A DNA stretch of 9,586 bases from Naegleria gruberi (taxonomy: Eukaryota), in the NCBI GenBank assembly GCA_000004985.1, contig GG739035.1; one strand, given 5' to 3'. The notes under the pieces were generated by a model. It saw nothing but the letters and a program-made list of their open reading frames with translations. It made no database searches and was not told the DNA's origin. Of the stretch, positions 3,101 to 9,586 are shown piece by piece (position 1 is the stretch's first letter; each line of letters begins with the position of its first letter). The position numbers were made by a program, and so were the translations under genes.

Positions 3101-3553
3101 ATGTCCAAATACAAAGTTACGATCAAACCACAAAGTTCATCCGATGTATTGGAAAAGAAGAAGGAGGTACTTTCTCTACTGGATAAACCAGAACAAGTTG
3201 ATTCCCTGCTAGCTTTGTTAGATGAGGTATTTTCCAACAGCAATGTAGAAAAGTATTCTGCCATCAGCAAGGATGACTTTGCCTTCCTGCTTGAAGCTAG
3301 ATGCAAGGCTTCATTGATAAGGGCTGATCAACTCTCGGAGAAGGAAGAAAAGAGGTTGGCTATATTGAAAGCCCTGAATAGTGGACAAGAATGTGTTATT
3401 AATCAACCAAGTTTTGCTCCTGGATATGTTTTGTATGGTGAAGCTTTTGTTAGTTTTGCAAAATTGGGTGATCACGACAAGGTGTTTGATGATAAGCAGG
3501 AAAGAGAATTAATCAAGAATATTAGAGAAATTGGTCTTGGAGTTGTGCAGACA
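3101..3553 (+). CDS. 5' portion (151 codons) of a CDS of unknown function, truncated by a large assembly gap.
   Basis: ATG at 3101 in the context caacaaaATGtc. Open frame to the gap edge: MSKYKVTIKPQSSSDVLEKKKEVLSLLDKPEQVDSLLALLDEVFSNSNVEKYSAISKDDFAFLLEARCKASLIRADQLSEKEEKRLAILKALNSGQECVINQPSFAPGYVLYGEAFVSFAKLGDHDKVFDDKQERELIKNIREIGLGVVQT. The long X-filled ORFs in the track are gap artefacts. Confidence 0.55.
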
Positions 3554-5712
3554 NNNNNNNNNNNNNNNNNNNNNNNNNNNNNNNNNNNNNNNNNNNNNNN
3601 NNNNNNNNNNNNNNNNNNNNNNNNNNNNNNNNNNNNNNNNNNNNNNNNNNNNNNNNNNNNNNNNNNNNNNNNNNNNNNNNNNNNNNNNNNNNNNNNNNNN
3701 NNNNNNNNNNNNNNNNNNNNNNNNNNNNNNNNNNNNNNNNNNNNNNNNNNNNNNNNNNNNNNNNNNNNNNNNNNNNNNNNNNNNNNNNNNNNNNNNNNNN
3801 NNNNNNNNNNNNNNNNNNNNNNNNNNNNNNNNNNNNNNNNNNNNNNNNNNNNNNNNNNNNNNNNNNNNNNNNNNNNNNNNNNNNNNNNNNNNNNNNNNNN
3901 NNNNNNNNNNNNNNNNNNNNNNNNNNNNNNNNNNNNNNNNNNNNNNNNNNNNNNNNNNNNNNNNNNNNNNNNNNNNNNNNNNNNNNNNNNNNNNNNNNNN
4001 NNNNNNNNNNNNNNNNNNNNNNNNNNNNNNNNNNNNNNNNNNNNNNNNNNNNNNNNNNNNNNNNNNNNNNNNNNNNNNNNNNNNNNNNNNNNNNNNNNNN
4101 NNNNNNNNNNNNNNNNNNNNNNNNNNNNNNNNNNNNNNNNNNNNNNNNNNNNNNNNNNNNNNNNNNNNNNNNNNNNNNNNNNNNNNNNNNNNNNNNNNNN
4201 NNNNNNNNNNNNNNNNNNNNNNNNNNNNNNNNNNNNNNNNNNNNNNNNNNNNNNNNNNNNNNNNNNNNNNNNNNNNNNNNNNNNNNNNNNNNNNNNNNNN
4301 NNNNNNNNNNNNNNNNNNNNNNNNNNNNNNNNNNNNNNNNNNNNNNNNNNNNNNNNNNNNNNNNNNNNNNNNNNNNNNNNNNNNNNNNNNNNNNNNNNNN
4401 NNNNNNNNNNNNNNNNNNNNNNNNNNNNNNNNNNNNNNNNNNNNNNNNNNNNNNNNNNNNNNNNNNNNNNNNNNNNNNNNNNNNNNNNNNNNNNNNNNNN
4501 NNNNNNNNNNNNNNNNNNNNNNNNNNNNNNNNNNNNNNNNNNNNNNNNNNNNNNNNNNNNNNNNNNNNNNNNNNNNNNNNNNNNNNNNNNNNNNNNNNNN
4601 NNNNNNNNNNNNNNNNNNNNNNNNNNNNNNNNNNNNNNNNNNNNNNNNNNNNNNNNNNNNNNNNNNNNNNNNNNNNNNNNNNNNNNNNNNNNNNNNNNNN
4701 NNNNNNNNNNNNNNNNNNNNNNNNNNNNNNNNNNNNNNNNNNNNNNNNNNNNNNNNNNNNNNNNNNNNNNNNNNNNNNNNNNNNNNNNNNNNNNNNNNNN
4801 NNNNNNNNNNNNNNNNNNNNNNNNNNNNNNNNNNNNNNNNNNNNNNNNNNNNNNNNNNNNNNNNNNNNNNNNNNNNNNNNNNNNNNNNNNNNNNNNNNNN
4901 NNNNNNNNNNNNNNNNNNNNNNNNNNNNNNNNNNNNNNNNNNNNNNNNNNNNNNNNNNNNNNNNNNNNNNNNNNNNNNNNNNNNNNNNNNNNNNNNNNNN
5001 NNNNNNNNNNNNNNNNNNNNNNNNNNNNNNNNNNNNNNNNNNNNNNNNNNNNNNNNNNNNNNNNNNNNNNNNNNNNNNNNNNNNNNNNNNNNNNNNNNNN
5101 NNNNNNNNNNNNNNNNNNNNNNNNNNNNNNNNNNNNNNNNNNNNNNNNNNNNNNNNNNNNNNNNNNNNNNNNNNNNNNNNNNNNNNNNNNNNNNNNNNNN
5201 NNNNNNNNNNNNNNNNNNNNNNNNNNNNNNNNNNNNNNNNNNNNNNNNNNNNNNNNNNNNNNNNNNNNNNNNNNNNNNNNNNNNNNNNNNNNNNNNNNNN
5301 NNNNNNNNNNNNNNNNNNNNNNNNNNNNNNNNNNNNNNNNNNNNNNNNNNNNNNNNNNNNNNNNNNNNNNNNNNNNNNNNNNNNNNNNNNNNNNNNNNNN
5401 NNNNNNNNNNNNNNNNNNNNNNNNNNNNNNNNNNNNNNNNNNNNNNNNNNNNNNNNNNNNNNNNNNNNNNNNNNNNNNNNNNNNNNNNNNNNNNNNNNNN
5501 NNNNNNNNNNNNNNNNNNNNNNNNNNNNNNNNNNNNNNNNNNNNNNNNNNNNNNNNNNNNNNNNNNNNNNNNNNNNNNNNNNNNNNNNNNNNNNNNNNNN
5601 NNNNNNNNNNNNNNNNNNNNNNNNNNNNNNNNNNNNNNNNNNNNNNNNNNNNNNNNNNNNNNNNNNNNNNNNNNNNNNNNNNNNNNNNNNNNNNNNNNNN
5701 NNNNNNNNNNNN
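3554..5712. other. Assembly gap (2159 N).
   Basis: Run of n characters. It hides the body of the 3101 gene and possibly further features. Confidence 0.95.
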
Positions 5713-5891
5713 CGAAACAAGATCTTATCCAAAGATACAAAAAATATGATAAGAGCATGTATATTCTTCCATGTTTTTCAATGAATTATGAGATGACATT
5801 TCATGCAGTAGGAGATTGGTTTTCAATTATTAGAGATACTCTTGGAATAATTGTTGGACTCAATACTACAGATTTCTCACTATCTTCTTGA
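5713..5891 (+). CDS. Probable 3' end (59 codons) of a plus-strand CDS whose body lies in the gap. It may be the C-terminus of the 3101 gene.
   Basis: Open frame from the gap edge to TGA at 5889-5891: KQDLIQRYKKYDKSMYILPCFSMNYEMTFHAVGDWFSIIRDTLGIIVGLNTTDFSLSS. The other two frames stop sooner. No independent start codon. Confidence 0.35.
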
Positions 5892-6103
5892 AGAAAGTTA
5901 GTTTGAACGATGCTGTGAGGAAGGCATTCGAACTTGGATTTTCAGTGTTTGTGGATCAGATGTTCATTCAATTACAATCCATCTATTTCACTTTTAATAA
6001 GAATGATCGGGATTGTTTCTCTAATGTAAAAGTAATAAATAGTAGATTAAATACGCATCTTAGGAATCATATTCCTTGTAAGCAAACAAACCAAATAAGA
6101 GCA

Positions 6104-6224
6104 AAAGACTACAGCACCACAGGTTCCCAAGTTGTCTCCAACCTCAGTACTGATGTGGCTCGACGATGCTTAACTTCTCAAATCGGACGGGATGAGGTGC
6201 ATTCATCGTGATATGGCCGTAGCC
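6104..6224 (-). rRNA. 5S ribosomal RNA gene (copy 1, ~121 nt). A Pol III T-run terminator follows immediately.
   Basis: The reverse complement reads GGCTACGGCCATATCACGATGAATGCACCTCATCCCGTCCGATTTGAGAAGTTAAGCATCGTCGAGCCACATCAGTACTGAGGTTGGAGACAACTTGGGAACCTGTGGTGCTGTAGTCTTTT. It carries the canonical 5S hallmarks: a GGCTACGGCCATA 5' end, CCCGTCCGAT, a box-A-like AGAAGTTAAGC, TGGGAAC, and a 3' GTGCTGTAGTC that pairs with the 5' end to form helix I. T4 terminator on the coding strand (plus 6103-6106). An A/T-rich TATA-like element (ctttatattta) lies ~20-30 nt upstream, at plus 6244-6254. End coordinates are +/-2 nt. Confidence 0.9.
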
Positions 6225-6243
6225 ATTCTTTTCCTTAACACAA

Positions 6244-6254
6244 TAAATATAAAG
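6244..6254 (-). promoter_or_regulatory. TATA-like element upstream of 5S copy 1.
   Basis: The minus strand reads ctttatattta at -20 to -30 from the 5S 5' end. Dispersed fungal 5S genes (for example Neurospora) are known to depend on an upstream TATA-like box in addition to internal control regions. The matching element for copy 2 is taaataaag at plus 8091-8099. Confidence 0.3.
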
Positions 6255-6453
6255 AATATTGAAAATCTTTGAAAGCAAATTTTATTCACATTAAACTCGG
6301 GCTATATTTATTGACTTGTGCAAGTGGTCAAGAATAATAGGACGGGAAGCCTGCTAGGCGACAATCCCACTACAGTCTTGAGTGATTGAACGGTGAAGGA
6401 CAGTTTTGCTATTGAGAAATTGTCTGTGTTGAATCATTTTTCTTTATTGAAAA

Positions 6454-7623
6454 TTAACAATCATTAATTCGGTACAATGCTTCATCCAACAAATTAATGC
6501 CCAATGTTGAAATAAATTTGAACAACCAACATTGACCATCATCATCAATATTTACAAAATCTTGTCCAATCCATTCTTTCTTAAATGTTGAAATAGCTTG
6601 TTCTCTATTCCCATCACTTTGTTTCAAGATGAGTTTAGTTTGGTTTTTTGGTTTTTTCAAGTCACTGTGTAATCTAGATACAGAAATAGAAATACCTTTT
6701 TCATGAGCTTCACCACTATAGGAAACACTATAGTCAACATCAATCCTCATAGAAAAAGGAATGAGTGCAGTATAATAATCCAATGTAAAGTGAATACTTG
6801 ATATTGTATTGTCAGTATCTCCATCATCAGTTACACTAATATAGGTCAACTTGCGATCTACAGATGTAATGTGAAATCTTGAATAAAGGGATGGTGCAAT
6901 AAGAGTAGTATCAGCATAACTATTATCCTGATGGGTAGTTAAAAAGAAAGCTCTCACAGGTCCAATTCTTGAATGTTTGTTAAAACTTGCGTGTTTTAAC
7001 AAACAAAATTCCTTCATAAATTGATATGAGTGCTTTTTAATCATCTCCTTGCCACTCTTTTTAAATATAGTTGGTTTTGTTGTAAAACGAGTAGTTCTGT
7101 TAATTTCTACATGTGTATCATTGCTGTCGTATTGTGTTGGCCATTTAGTCCAATTTTTCAAACTTTCCAATGTCATATCCCACAATCTACAAAACAATTC
7201 TTGCCACATTCTTTCCTCATCAATCATACCTTCGTACCAAGAACGACAAACCAAAAACACTGATCCATTCAATACACTTTCCAAATCCATAAATGGAACA
7301 ATAGAATAGGCAACAACTTCTGGTGGTAATGATTTGATTAAAGAAGGTACACGTTCCATTTCATATTTTCTCTTCTTTCTTACCAATACATCCATCATCA
7401 AATCACAAAATTCATCATAATTTCGTACTTTCTTATCATCATTCTTTTGATAATTTTCATAACAAGTTGATTCAACAAACTTGAGCATGTGTTCATCTAC
7501 TTGTTCAATTCTTTTCTTTTCCTCTTGTAAGAATTTTTCATAGAGTCTTGATGATTTATTGGATGCTGATTTTTGGTTCTTCTTTGGTGCTTTTTTTGTG
7601 GTGGCTTTTCTCTTTGGCGGCAT
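6454..7623 (-). CDS. F-box domain protein (389 aa, single exon) with a basic N-terminus and an uncharacterised ~290 aa C-terminal region.
   Basis: ATG at 7623-7621 in the context aaaaaaaATGcc, with an uninterrupted ORF to TAA at 6456-6454. Residues ~95-150, LPPEVVAYSIVPFMDLESVLNGSVFLVCRSWYEGMIDEERMWQELFCRLW, match the F-box consensus (LPxEil..If..Ld...L.....VCk.W......d..lW). The N-terminus MPPKRKATTKKAPKKNQKS is Lys-rich and NLS-like. The plus-strand ORFs 7030..7263 and 7049..7309 are antisense shadows. Confidence 0.75.
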   Translation of the reverse strand: MPPKRKATTKKAPKKNQKSASNKSSRLYEKFLQEEKKRIEQVDEHMLKFVESTCYENYQKNDDKKVRNYDEFCDLMMDVLVRKKRKYEMERVPSLIKSLPPEVVAYSIVPFMDLESVLNGSVFLVCRSWYEGMIDEERMWQELFCRLWDMTLESLKNWTKWPTQYDSNDTHVEINRTTRFTTKPTIFKKSGKEMIKKHSYQFMKEFCLLKHASFNKHSRIGPVRAFFLTTHQDNSYADTTLIAPSLYSRFHITSVDRKLTYISVTDDGDTDNTISSIHFTLDYYTALIPFSMRIDVDYSVSYSGEAHEKGISISVSRLHSDLKKPKNQTKLILKQSDGNREQAISTFKKEWIGQDFVNIDDDGQCWLFKFISTLGINLLDEALYRINDC

Positions 7624-7958
7624 TTTTTTTTGGTGAGTTTTGTATTAGACTCGAGTTGAACTTTTATTGTAACGAAGTTTTTTTCGGCTGTTTTTTGGAA
7701 TAATTTAATGATAATGTTCATGATTACAACAAGAATGTTCATGGTCATGTTTACAATCAGAATTCTGATTAATCACAGCTCCCAACATGTTGATATTCAA
7801 AGTACTCAAAGATTCCGAATCATTTGCAGACAAAAATTCTGAAGTGAAAATTTCCAAGCTATTAACGTAATCTTTTTCCCAGAAATTAGTTTTCCATTTA
7901 AAGAAGTCTTGGACAATATTCAATCTGGTGCATTCACCATTATATATAACGAAAGCAA

Positions 7959-8079
7959 AAAGACTACAGCACCACAGGTTCCCAAGTTGTCTCCAACCTC
8001 AGTACTGATGTGGCTCGACGATGCTTAACTTCTCAAATCGGACGGGATGAGGTGCATTCATCGTGATATGGCCGTAGCC
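7959..8079 (-). rRNA. 5S ribosomal RNA gene (copy 2). Identical in sequence to copy 1 and in the same orientation.
   Basis: Positions 7962-8081 are base-for-base identical to 6107-6226, as far as I can align by eye. T5 terminator on the coding strand (plus 7957-7961). A/T-rich upstream element taaataaag at plus 8091-8099. Copy 2 lies 1855 bp from copy 1. Confidence 0.9.
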
Positions 8080-8131
8080 ATCTAAAATATTAAATAAAGG
8101 TTTATGAACTAGTTCCAAATACTTTTATTCT

Positions 8132-9375
8132 TTACATTATTGAACATTTCTTCTTTTTGACTTGTACCCTCTTTTTACATTCCTCAATGTATGAGATGTC
8201 TTGTTCAATACATCCTTTCAATAAAGTAAGATTATCAATTCCACCAAGTCTTTGCTTTCTAACAGTTTCCTCAAATATGGCATCGATGTTTTCTCCATTT
8301 TTGGCGCTACATTCAATAATGGAATAGTTCAATAATGAATTATCTGAAACAATTGAATTTACTTCTTGTCTAAAACGATCAATTGTTTCATTTCTATTTG
8401 TGCTAACCAATAAATCCATCTTGTTTAAAACAAACACCACAGGCATATCATTAACTTCAACATCTTTGCAACGTAACATGTTCTCTACGTGTCTACGCAT
8501 ATCTGATACAGAGTTTTCATCACTTGAAGAACATACAATTACAAATGCATCTCCAACTCTCATATATTGATCTATTAAGAGGTATTATTAATTGAATTAT
8601 ATTCCAAAATAAAATCCCTTACCTCTCCATGCTAACATAATATTAGTCGAGTTTCTAATTAAATTTACTTACTAGAAAACTCCTCAGGTCCTAATAGTTA
8701 TCATCAAAATTAGTTAATCATAATTATTGCCAAACATTACAAAAACTCACCTGCAGTATCGAGAATTTCTACCATGGCTGGCTCTTCATCAACCCTAAAA
8801 TACTTTCTGTATGTATCCTCAATTGTCGGATCATATTCAGTAATAAAAATATGCTGAATAAAGAAAATGGTTATTGCAGATTTTCCTTTTTTCATAATTA
8901 TGGTAAGTGTGAAATAAATAGGTCCATAATAAAATTCTATTAGAATCGAATAATAGAATTACTCACCCACTCCTCCTTCCCCAAGCACTATTATTTTAAC
9001 TTCCTCTTGTTGTTGTACATTCGGATCATATTTTGGTCGTTTGTAAAGTTTAAATTTGATATAACTTGCTAATAAAATTTTCCTCTTCATTTCGTCTCGT
9101 TTAATCATTCGTAATCTAAGTTTCTCCAAATCATTTCCAAATAATTGACCAATTCCAAAATTCTTTTCGAATACTTTCCACCAAAAGGCATTGAAATAAT
9201 CTTGCATTTCCTTCATATTCGAAATTTTCTTATTAATTGATTGAAATTTGGCAACCATTCGGATATCTGAATTTCTACTTGATGGATTTTTCAATTCGCT
9301 ATCAGCTCCAAACGATAAAATATGTTGGAATATTTCATAGGGAAGTAATGAGAACAAACTTTCATGTGGAGCCAT
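8132..9375 (-). CDS. Ras-subfamily small GTPase with a polybasic + CaaX C-terminus and a ~125 aa N-terminal extension that carries an F-box-like motif. Five-exon model; the start/end given here are the gene extremes.
   Basis: Exons on the minus strand: 9375..8967, 8885..8751, 8690..8673, 8631..8623, 8571..8132. Introns are 81, 60, 41 and 51 nt, with donors GTGAGT, GTGAGT, GTAAGT, GTAAGG and acceptors aaaaAG, tattAG, tgttAG, aataAG, all in phase 1. The spliced product has the expected Ras motifs: G1 P-loop [16 protein letters not shown], switch [16 protein letters not shown], switch II region [29 protein letters not shown]4 VFVLNKMDL and G5 ECSAKNG. The C-terminus [11 protein letters not shown] is a polybasic stretch plus CaaX (CSIM). 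Start at 9375 is ATG in the context aaaaaaaATGgc; the ORF-track start at 9402 is TTG. The N-terminal extension is [30 protein letters not shown]...[13 protein letters not shown]...FNAFWWKVF. Total 336 aa. Confidence 0.75.
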
Positions 9376-9522
9376 TTTTTTTAGTTTGAACAAAAAGTTC
9401 AAGGAACTGAGTTCATATGTTCGATTTCAATGCACAGTTCCAATCATTAATAGGTTTTCAATAATCTTTGATATTGAAATAGGAATAAATCATTTTTTAT
9501 ATATCTTTATTCGATAATGTTA

Positions 9523-9586
9523 TTATTTATTCAAGATTTTATTCAACTCTTCTTGATAATCGTCCTGATCTATGAGACCCTCATCA
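9523..9586 (-). CDS. Possible 3' end of a further minus-strand CDS entering from the right edge (acidic C-terminal tail).
   Basis: The minus-strand frame reads ...DEGLIDQDDYQEELNKILNK and then a double stop TAATAA (plus 9525-9520). Only ~21 codons are visible, so this is weak. Confidence 0.25.
   Translation of the reverse strand, partial: DEGLIDQDDYQEELNKILNK

What the first reader, a model, noticed from the sequence alone, without database searches (positions are those of the whole stretch)
6099..8081. Two identical, dispersed 5S rRNA genes in direct orientation, alternating with Pol II genes (GTPase - 5S - F-box - 5S, all on the minus strand)
Two ~123-bp segments (6104-6226 and 7959-8081) are identical and are unmistakably 5S rRNA on the minus strand. 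Each has its own T-run terminator and an upstream A/T-rich TATA-like element. Similarity stops exactly at the 5S boundaries, so these are complete genes rather than fragments of a larger duplicated segment. They are not part of a tandem 5S array or an rDNA repeat. Each sits directly downstream of a protein-coding gene on the same strand: the F-box gene stops 230 bp before copy 1, and the GTPase gene stops 53 bp before copy 2. Perfect identity between dispersed copies suggests either recent duplication or concerted evolution/gene conversion. The alternating Pol II / Pol III layout is unusual enough to map genome-wide.
Basis: partly seen in the sequence, partly recalled or inferred. Interest (0 to 1): 0.5.

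Follow-up and report, generated by a model that had tools for sequence, protein, structure and literature searches.

The report
Two dispersed Naegleria 5S rRNA genes
The window is scaffold_202 of the amoeba Naegleria gruberi, and it carries two genuine, identical 5S ribosomal RNA genes that were already listed in 2012 among about 279 copies scattered through this genome, so the finding is real but ordinary.

Summary
Rfam RF00001 matches 6106-6224(-) and 7961-8079(-) full length at 105.4 bits (gathering score 38). The two copies are 100% identical over 124 nt, and the flanks are unrelated.

The window is the whole 9,586-bp scaffold_202 of Naegleria gruberi. Its Ras GTPase and F-box-like proteins match NCBI N. 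gruberi proteins that sit on a contig of exactly 9,586 bp.

Both copies are already catalogued at these coordinates. Table S1 of Feng et al. 2012 (PMC3369914) lists scaffold_202 6105-6221 and 7960-8076 among 279 putative 5S genes.

I parsed that table. It holds 264 near-full-length copies on 113 scaffolds. No same-scaffold spacing is below 1.1 kb, and the median is 33 kb. There are 198 singletons, 27 pairs and 4 triplets. In all, 241 of 279 copies have similarity values that correspond to 88-91 of 120 positions matching the authors' query.

Identity between the two copies reflects family-wide homogeneity, not a recent local duplication. Scattered 5S genes are a known organisation (Neurospora, S. 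pombe, Acanthamoeba).

The genes look like autonomous Pol III units: box A and box C lie at the canonical positions and each gene ends in a T4 or T5 run. The upstream TATA-like element is plausible but not distinguishable from AT-rich background. Verdict: already known, low interest.

The parts
6106..6224 (-). 5S rRNA gene, copy 1 (119 nt)
   Evidence: RF00001 at 105.4 bits, E 6.7e-23, model 1-120. Canonical three-way-junction fold. Listed as R33689, scaffold_202 6105-6221, in PMC3369914 Table S1.
7961..8079 (-). 5S rRNA gene, copy 2 (119 nt), identical to copy 1
   Evidence: RF00001 at 105.4 bits. Exact repeat of copy 1. Listed as R33402, scaffold_202 7960-8076, in PMC3369914 Table S1.
6103..6106 (-). 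T4 run at the 3' end of copy 1 (putative Pol III terminator)
   Evidence: The sequence reads GTAGTCTTTTGCT. That a T-run of 4 or more terminates Pol III is established knowledge.
7957..7961 (-). T5 run at the 3' end of copy 2 (putative Pol III terminator)
   Evidence: The sequence reads GTAGTCTTTTTGCT.
6244..6251 (-). TATATTTA at -27..-20 of copy 1 (candidate upstream TATA-like element)
   Evidence: Read from the sequence. Not distinguishable from background for this copy alone. Pooled over 13 related loci there is a modest positional enrichment.
8100..8106 (-). CATAAAC at -27..-21 of copy 2 (candidate upstream TATA-like element); an AATAAA follows the GTPase stop codon at 8124-8129
   Evidence: Read from the sequence.
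6454..7623 (-). Intron-less 389-aa gene between the two 5S genes; weak F-box-like motif at residues 97-146
   Evidence: ORF listing. Pfam PF12937 E 0.0078, 16.4 bits, below the gathering score of 24.3. 100% identical to NCBI 'predicted protein [Naegleria gruberi]' P0121; two N. gruberi paralogues at 79% and 74%.
8132..9375 (-). Ras-family small GTPase gene, 5 exons (9375-8967, 8885-8751, 8690-8673, 8631-8623, 8571-8132), C-terminal CaaX box CSIM
   Evidence: Splice model. Pfam Ras hit. 99% identical to NCBI 'ras family small GTPase [Naegleria gruberi]' P0001, which sits on a contig of 9586 bp.
3554..5712 (.). Scaffold gap of 2159 N, starting 391 nt beyond the 3' end of copy 1; content unknown
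   Evidence: N-run listing.

Best explanation
These are two ordinary, functional members of the dispersed chromosomal 5S rRNA gene family of Naegleria gruberi. The published table lists 279 putative copies, about 264 of them near full length.

Each copy is a self-contained RNA polymerase III unit sitting in a short intergenic space of a compact genome. Its promoter is mainly internal: box A at +50 and box C at +80. A TATA-like element near -25 probably assists. Transcription ends in the T4 or T5 run directly after the gene.

The promoter travels with the transcribed segment, and only that segment is under selection or is a substrate for gene conversion between copies. That explains why the copies stay identical while the flanks are unrelated.

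The 18S, 5.8S and 28S genes of Naegleria lie on a multicopy extrachromosomal circle, so 5S genes are the only rRNA genes on the chromosomes.

Shown here: gene identity, structure, borders, organism, the genome-wide scatter (from published coordinates), and the positions of the internal boxes. Inferred: Pol III usage, activity of these particular copies, the role of the TATA-like element, and homogenisation by conversion and/or purifying selection.
For: - 5S identity and completeness.
- Exact 124-nt repeat with unrelated flanks.
- Organism and scaffold identity: both proteins match N. gruberi entries on a contig of 9586 bp.
- Both copies appear at the same coordinates in PMC3369914 Table S1.
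- Family size and scatter: 264 copies of at least 110 nt on 113 scaffolds, minimum spacing 1104 bp, median 33 kb, 27 pairs and 4 triplets within 6 kb.
- Homogeneity: similarity values of 0.75 in 161 copies, 0.742 in 40, 0.733 in 27 and 0.758 in 13.
- Internal control region: box A matches 6 of 6 specified positions at +50; box C matches 10 of 12 at +80. PMC3369914 also reports an ICR and a TATA box for N. gruberi 5S.
- Terminators: T4 and T5 runs.
- A metagenomic Naegleria-like copy (L005) differs by 1 nt and again has unrelated flanks.
- The rDNA lies on the circular extrachromosomal element (PMC5805870).
- 5S genes are found on the N. fowleri nuclear genome (PMC6831594).
Against: - No expression data are available here, so activity of these two copies is inferred.
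- PMC3369914 found no TFIIIA in N. gruberi by BLAST. How the internal boxes are read in this organism is therefore open.
- The TATA-like element in the two window copies scores 4 and 5 of 6, against 3-5 in control windows. This is not significant on its own.
- The assembly is a draft. A 2159-N gap lies 391 nt from copy 1, and many 5S copies sit on tiny scaffolds. Unassembled arrays cannot be excluded.
- The same paper scores N. gruberi as 'tandem: Y*' in its Table 1, although its own coordinates do not show this.
Confidence: 0.9

Rival explanations
1. The pair arose by a recent local duplication, either segmental or by retroposition of a 5S transcript. On this reading the perfect identity reflects youth rather than homogenisation.
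For: The two copies are 100% identical and only 1855 bp apart. Close pairs are over-represented genome-wide: 35 of 151 same-scaffold gaps are under 6 kb. My arithmetic on the numbers gives about 10-18 expected from random placement.
Against: The flanks show no similarity beyond 2 nt upstream and the T-run, which excludes a recent segmental duplication. There are no target-site duplications (best flanking direct repeats are 6 and 4 nt, no better than shuffles). There is no A-rich tail, which argues against retroposition. Identity is not special to this pair: 161 of 279 copies share the same similarity value, and a metagenomic relative differs by 1 nt.
Confidence: 0.07
2. The second copy is an assembly artefact. 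In this reading a mis-join or collapsed repeat in a small gapped draft scaffold has created the apparent layout.
For: The window is a 9.6-kb scaffold with two N gaps. 5S is a high-copy repeat.
Against: The stretch 5713-9586 that holds both copies has no N. Each copy is joined on both sides to unique sequence that continues into intact genes matching NCBI models. A 119-nt repeat is far shorter than a Sanger read, a point that rests on established knowledge. Twenty-six other pairs and 4 triplets of the same kind occur on large scaffolds.
Confidence: 0.02
3. The copies are 5S-derived pseudogenes or SINE-like elements rather than working rRNA genes.
For: Dispersed 5S families in filamentous fungi contain many pseudogenes (PMC10462631). 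The N. gruberi table also lists 15 short or divergent hits.
Against: Both copies are full length, score 105 bits with no non-canonical pair flagged in the CM alignment, and fall in the commonest similarity class of the family. They keep box A, box C and a T-run. They carry no appended SINE body or tail.
Confidence: 0.01

Closest known systems
N. gruberi 5S rRNA gene catalogue (Feng et al. 2012, PLoS One, PMC3369914, Table S1)
   Same: It lists the same two loci: scaffold_202 6105-6221 and 7960-8076. It covers the same family of 279 putative copies and also reports an ICR, a TATA box and T-runs.
   Different: The gene borders there come from BLAST, starting 3 nt inside and ending 1 nt beyond the covariance-model borders. 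The paper scores the arrangement as 'tandem', whereas its coordinates show scattered copies with a minimum spacing of 1.1 kb.
Scattered 5S rRNA genes of Neurospora crassa, Schizosaccharomyces pombe and Acanthamoeba castellanii (reviewed in PMC1635290)
   Same: 5S genes are unlinked to rDNA and scattered singly among protein-coding genes rather than in arrays. From my own knowledge, not checked here: conservation confined to the transcribed region (N. crassa) and an upstream TATA element near -30 (N. crassa, S. pombe).
   Different: The lineage is different (Heterolobosea). The copy number is larger, about 264-279, against about 100 in N. crassa and about 30 in S. pombe (figures from memory). 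Most copies give the same similarity value in Table S1, whereas N. crassa has several sequence types and many pseudogenes. No TFIIIA was found by BLAST. The large rRNA genes are extrachromosomal.
Classical tandem 5S rDNA arrays (animals, plants, Trypanosoma, Trichomonas)
   Same: The gene product is the same, as are the internal promoter layout and the T-run terminator.
   Different: There is no repeated spacer and no regular period. A 389-aa protein-coding gene lies between the two copies.

Membership tests
5S rRNA (Rfam RF00001) | Covariance-model score above the curated gathering score over the full model | tested here: met
   105.4 bits against 38, model positions 1-120, for both copies.
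5S rRNA (Rfam RF00001) | Three-way junction with helices I-V | tested here: met
   No non-canonical pair is flagged in the CM alignment. The MFE and centroid folds give helix I plus the II-III and IV-V arms.
Pol III type-1 (5S) gene | Internal control region with box A near +50 and box C near +80 | tested here: met
   Box A consensus matches 6 of 6 specified positions at +50. Box C matches 10 of 12 at +80. The intermediate-element consensus is too degenerate to be informative. Binding by a TFIIIA-like factor is not testable here, and PMC3369914 found no TFIIIA.
Pol III type-1 (5S) gene | Run of at least 4 T directly after the gene | tested here: met
   T4 for copy 1 and T5 for copy 2.
Pol III type-1 (5S) gene | The transcript is made and incorporated into ribosomes | not testable with these tools
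   No expression data are available.
Dispersed (scattered) 5S gene family | Copies at separate loci with unrelated flanking DNA | tested here: met
   The flanks of the two copies are unrelated, and L005 has a third, unrelated context. Published coordinates place 264 copies on 113 scaffolds.
Dispersed (scattered) 5S gene family | Not linked to the 18S-5.8S-28S unit | tested here: met
   No other rRNA hit occurs in the window, even at E <= 1. The Naegleria rDNA lies on the extrachromosomal circle.
Dispersed (scattered) 5S gene family | No head-to-tail arrays anywhere in the genome | tested here: inconclusive
   No same-scaffold spacing is below 1104 bp in the published table. However, the assembly is a draft with gaps and many tiny 5S-bearing scaffolds, and I could not search the genome or the reads myself.
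Dispersed (scattered) 5S gene family | Positioned upstream TATA element near -25 to -30 (as in N. crassa and S. pombe) | tested here: inconclusive
   The window copies score 4 and 5 of 6, against 3-5 in control windows. Pooling 13 loci gives 4.38 vs 3.65, Mann-Whitney p = 0.004.
Tandem 5S rDNA array | Head-to-tail units with a conserved spacer and a regular period | tested here: not met
   The 1855-bp interval holds a 389-aa gene. The flanks are unrelated and no further copy is present.
5S retropseudogene / 5S-derived SINE | Target-site duplications, an A-rich or foreign 3' tail, truncation or decay | tested here: not met
   Flanking direct repeats are no better than shuffles. There is no tail. 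Both copies are full length and intact.

The most novel reading that the evidence does not exclude
N. gruberi may have no 5S arrays at all. Its whole 5S supply would then come from about 264 single genes slotted between Pol II genes. Most of these give the same similarity value in Table S1. There would be a roughly 2-3-fold excess of 1-6 kb pairs and no recognisable TFIIIA.

That would contradict the only published description ('tandem'). It would also make Naegleria one of the largest and most homogeneous fully scattered 5S families known. Such a family is a natural system for asking how ectopic gene conversion or selection keeps hundreds of unlinked 119-bp genes identical. A further question is whether these Pol III units also act as boundaries or terminators between closely packed Pol II genes. 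One example is the 52 nt between the GTPase stop codon and copy 2.
Probability: 0.45. Interest if true: 0.35.

Novelty: already known. Interest (0 to 1): 0.15.

Why it matters
It matters little as a discovery. The two genes are already in a published list, and scattered 5S genes are a textbook alternative to arrays.

There are three modest points of value.

First, the published summary of N. gruberi 5S organisation ('tandem') does not fit its own coordinates and deserves correction.

Second, statements that Naegleria has 'no rRNA genes in the nuclear DNA' hold only for 18S, 5.8S and 28S.

Third, a family of this size and homogeneity without arrays would be a convenient test case for concerted evolution of unlinked genes.

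Tried and rejected
- The look-up of encoding contigs on four N. gruberi proteins returned nothing. N. gruberi is not in that index, so I could not fetch other 5S loci or the loci of the F-box paralogues.
- The first metagenome scan, with a 30-mer, found nothing. The second, with a 32-mer, gave 13 contigs. Only one of them (L005) is Naegleria-like.
- I tried to name the organism behind the VFQM/VFQO contigs with the FGGY-kinase ORF of L008. The best named hits were only 38-41% identical (insects, Acrasis kona), so it remains unidentified.
- I tested whether the two flanking genes are themselves duplicates, which would imply a duplicated 'gene + 5S' unit. BLASTP of the F-box-like protein against the GTPase gave E = 0.52, so this is rejected.
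- The N-terminal 'LPYEIF...' stretch of the GTPase looked F-box-like by eye, but it has no Pfam hit at E <= 0.1.
- Co-orientation of 5S with its neighbours is not a rule. Among the metagenomic loci, about 8 neighbouring ORFs lie on the same strand and 5-7 on the opposite strand.
- The original papers on N. crassa and S. pombe 5S genes, and the N. gruberi genome paper, are not held in the library.
- A low-threshold Rfam scan of the window added only a chance CrcZ hit.
Full report
OBSERVATION

A gathering-threshold Rfam scan of the window returns exactly two hits, both RF00001 5S_rRNA. They lie at 6106-6224(-) and 7961-8079(-). Each scores 105.4 bits against a gathering score of 38, with E 6.7e-23. 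Each covers model positions 1-120 and has no non-canonical pair flagged.

The repeat finder reports a 124-nt direct repeat, 6103-6226 / 7958-8081, at 100% identity and 1855 bp spacing. Read on the minus strand, the shared block is 'AT', the 119-nt gene, and three further T.

The RNA folds on its own into helix I plus the II-III and IV-V arms (-41.5 kcal/mol, z = -2.6).

Outside the block, in-register identity drops towards the 28% expected from composition. The downstream 200 nt align no better than shuffles (498 of 500 shuffles score at least as high). The upstream 200 nt are marginal (local score 18 vs 13.2 +/- 2.3; 23 of 500 shuffles reach it). No target-site-like direct repeats flank either copy.

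There are no tRNAs. No other RNA family appears even at E <= 1, apart from one chance hit.

WHERE THE WINDOW COMES FROM

The right-hand gene is a five-exon Ras-family GTPase with 41-81-nt GT..AG introns. Its product is 99% identical to NCBI 'ras family small GTPase [Naegleria gruberi]'. The only contig recorded for that protein is 9586 bp long, which is the length of the window.

The ORF between the two 5S genes is 100% identical to an N. gruberi 'predicted protein', again on a 9586-bp contig. It has two N. gruberi paralogues, at 79% and 74% identity, on other scaffolds.

The window has N gaps at 1024-1106 and 3554-5712. It is therefore a complete small scaffold of the draft N. gruberi assembly.

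ALREADY CATALOGUED

Feng et al. 2012 (PMC3369914) searched the JGI Naegr1 assembly by BLASTn and reported 279 putative 5S genes. Their Table S1 contains 'scaffold_202 6105-6221' and 'scaffold_202 7960-8076'. These are the two copies in this window, to within the looser BLAST borders. This fixes the window as scaffold_202.

WHAT THE PUBLISHED MAP SHOWS

I transcribed the table and analysed it.
- There are 264 entries of at least 110 nt, on 113 scaffolds.
- Of the 151 same-scaffold neighbour distances, none is below 1104 bp and the median is 33 kb.
- Eight distances fall at 1-2 kb, 13 at 2-3 kb, 8 at 3-5 kb and 10 at 5-10 kb.
- With a 6-kb linking distance there are 198 singletons, 27 pairs and 4 triplets.
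- The 1855-bp pair in this window is the seventh closest.

No regular period and no head-to-tail array is visible. The paper's Table 1 entry 'tandem arrangement: Y*' for N. gruberi is therefore not borne out by its own coordinates.

Close pairs are about 2-3.5 times commoner than random placement predicts. There are 35 gaps under 6 kb, against about 10 expected from 264 copies in about 41 Mb, or about 18 from an exponential distribution with the observed median. This is my own rough arithmetic on the numbers.

The family is very homogeneous. The similarity column takes the value 0.75 in 161 entries, including both copies here. It is 0.742 in 40 entries, 0.733 in 27 and 0.758 in 13. These values correspond to 88-91 of 120 positions matching the authors' query. 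Perfect identity of the two copies is thus the family norm, not a sign of a young duplication.

RELATED LOCI FROM ELSEWHERE

N. gruberi DNA could not be fetched through the gene index. A scan of metagenome contigs with a 32-mer from helix III and loop C gave 13 contigs, each with a single 5S gene.

L005 differs from the window gene by one nucleotide and has flanks unrelated to either window copy. Only 'AGAT' directly before +1 and the T-run are shared.

Eleven VFQM/VFQO contigs carry a different 5S (26-30 differences where the full gene is present) from an AT-rich, intron-poor eukaryote that I could not identify. That family is also scattered, with unique flanks. Its genes lie 17-300 nt from ORFs on either strand. 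In L008 the 5S gene sits between an FGGY kinase gene and an SNF2 helicase gene, all on one strand. L013 is a third, GC-rich type.

Co-orientation with neighbours, which is complete in the window, is not general. Among these loci about 8 neighbouring ORFs lie on the same strand and 5-7 on the opposite strand.

HOW IT MOST LIKELY WORKS

The gene carries the type-1 Pol III internal control region at the canonical places. The box A consensus used in PMC3369914 matches 6 of 6 specified positions at +50. The box C consensus matches 10 of 12 at +80. The same paper reports an ICR, a TATA box and T-runs for N. gruberi 5S, and finds TFIIIB, TFIIIC and four Pol III-specific subunits but no TFIIIA.

Each copy ends in a T-run: T4 for copy 1 and T5 for copy 2.

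Upstream, copy 1 has TATATTTA at -27..-20, copy 2 has CATAAAC at -27..-21, and L005 has AAATTATAG at -26..-18. In DNA that is about 68% A+T this is weak evidence. The window copies score 4 and 5 of 6 against TATAAA, while control windows score 3-5. Pooling 13 loci gives a modest positional enrichment (4.38 vs 3.65, Mann-Whitney p = 0.004).

I therefore commit to the following reading. These are autonomous Pol III units. Their promoter is largely internal and so travels with the gene, probably helped by a TATA-like element near -25, as in N. crassa and S. pombe (from my own knowledge).

Homogeneity confined to the transcribed block is best explained by purifying selection plus gene conversion among unlinked copies. 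Occasional local gain of copies would account for the excess of 1-6 kb pairs.

The structure, the borders, the scatter and the box positions are shown. Pol III usage, activity of these copies, the role of the TATA-like element and the homogenising mechanism are inferred.

CONTEXT

In Naegleria the 18S, 5.8S and 28S genes lie on about 3,000-5,000 copies of a 14-kb circular extrachromosomal element. [quoted passage not shown] The 5S genes are the exception. They were also found on the nuclear genome of N. fowleri (PMC6831594).

A review lists scattered 5S genes as a rare but established organisation, in Neurospora crassa, Schizosaccharomyces pombe and Acanthamoeba castellanii (PMC1635290). N. 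crassa 5S units are likewise described as dispersed and as evolving by birth-and-death (PMC10462631).

RIVALS

A recent segmental duplication is excluded by the unrelated flanks. Recent retroposition lacks target-site duplications and a tail. An assembly artefact is unlikely: both copies lie in an N-free stretch joined to intact unique genes, and the same layout recurs 30 times on large scaffolds. Pseudogene or SINE status is contradicted by the intact, full-length sequence, which falls in the commonest similarity class.

VERDICT

The feature itself is already known. These exact loci were published, the arrangement is the norm in this genome, and it is a recognised alternative organisation of 5S genes.

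Residual interest lies in the mismatch between the published 'tandem' label and the coordinates. It also lies in the size and uniformity of a possibly array-free family in an organism without an identified TFIIIA. Interest 0.15.

Noticed in passing
window 8623-8631 (-), within the GTPase gene 8132-9375: The NCBI protein model (333 aa) lacks three residues (TWR) that a 9-nt micro-exon with GT..AG borders supplies. With the micro-exon, switch II reads DTAGPEEFSTWRDQYMR, which is the usual Ras spacing. The annotated model probably skips a micro-exon.
   Followed up: partly
window 3554-5712 and 1024-1106: There are two scaffold gaps, of 2159 and 83 N. The large one starts 391 nt beyond the 3' end of 5S copy 1 and interrupts a plus-strand gene that starts at 3101 and appears to end at 5891. 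Its content is unknown.
   Followed up: no
PMC3369914 Table 1 vs Table S1 (N. gruberi genome): The paper scores N. gruberi 5S genes as tandemly arranged. Its own coordinates show 264 scattered copies with no spacing under 1.1 kb, and only 27 pairs and 4 triplets within 6 kb.
   Followed up: yes
PMC5805870 and related CERE announcements: These papers state that Naegleria has no rRNA genes in nuclear DNA. This overlooks the several hundred chromosomal 5S genes.
   Followed up: partly
L001-L004, L006-L012 (metagenome contigs VFQM/VFQO): An unidentified AT-rich, intron-poor eukaryote has its own scattered 5S family, with one gene per contig and unique flanks. Helix II variants (GCGTAG/CTGCGC, GTGTAG/CTGCAC, GCATAG/CTGTGC) change on both strands in a compensatory way. 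In L008 the 5S gene lies between an FGGY kinase gene and an SNF2/GRF-zinc-finger helicase gene on the same strand.
   Followed up: partly
L005:539-657 (-) (Ga0247722_10036048): This environmental Naegleria-like 5S gene differs from the window copies by one base (T24A). It lies 165 nt from a divergently oriented 361-aa ORF whose sequence looks like an alpha/beta-hydrolase by eye. Its flanks are unrelated to scaffold_202.
   Followed up: partly
window 6454-7623 (-) and other N. gruberi scaffolds: The gene between the two 5S copies has only three database relatives, all in N. gruberi (itself plus paralogues at 79% and 74%). It is a lineage-restricted small family with a sub-threshold F-box-like motif. 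Whether the paralogues also neighbour 5S genes could not be checked.
   Followed up: partly
window 8124-8129 (-): An AATAAA lies 2 nt after the GTPase stop codon (8132-8134). The mRNA 3' end probably falls within the 52 nt before 5S copy 2, that is, inside the presumed Pol III upstream promoter region.
   Followed up: no
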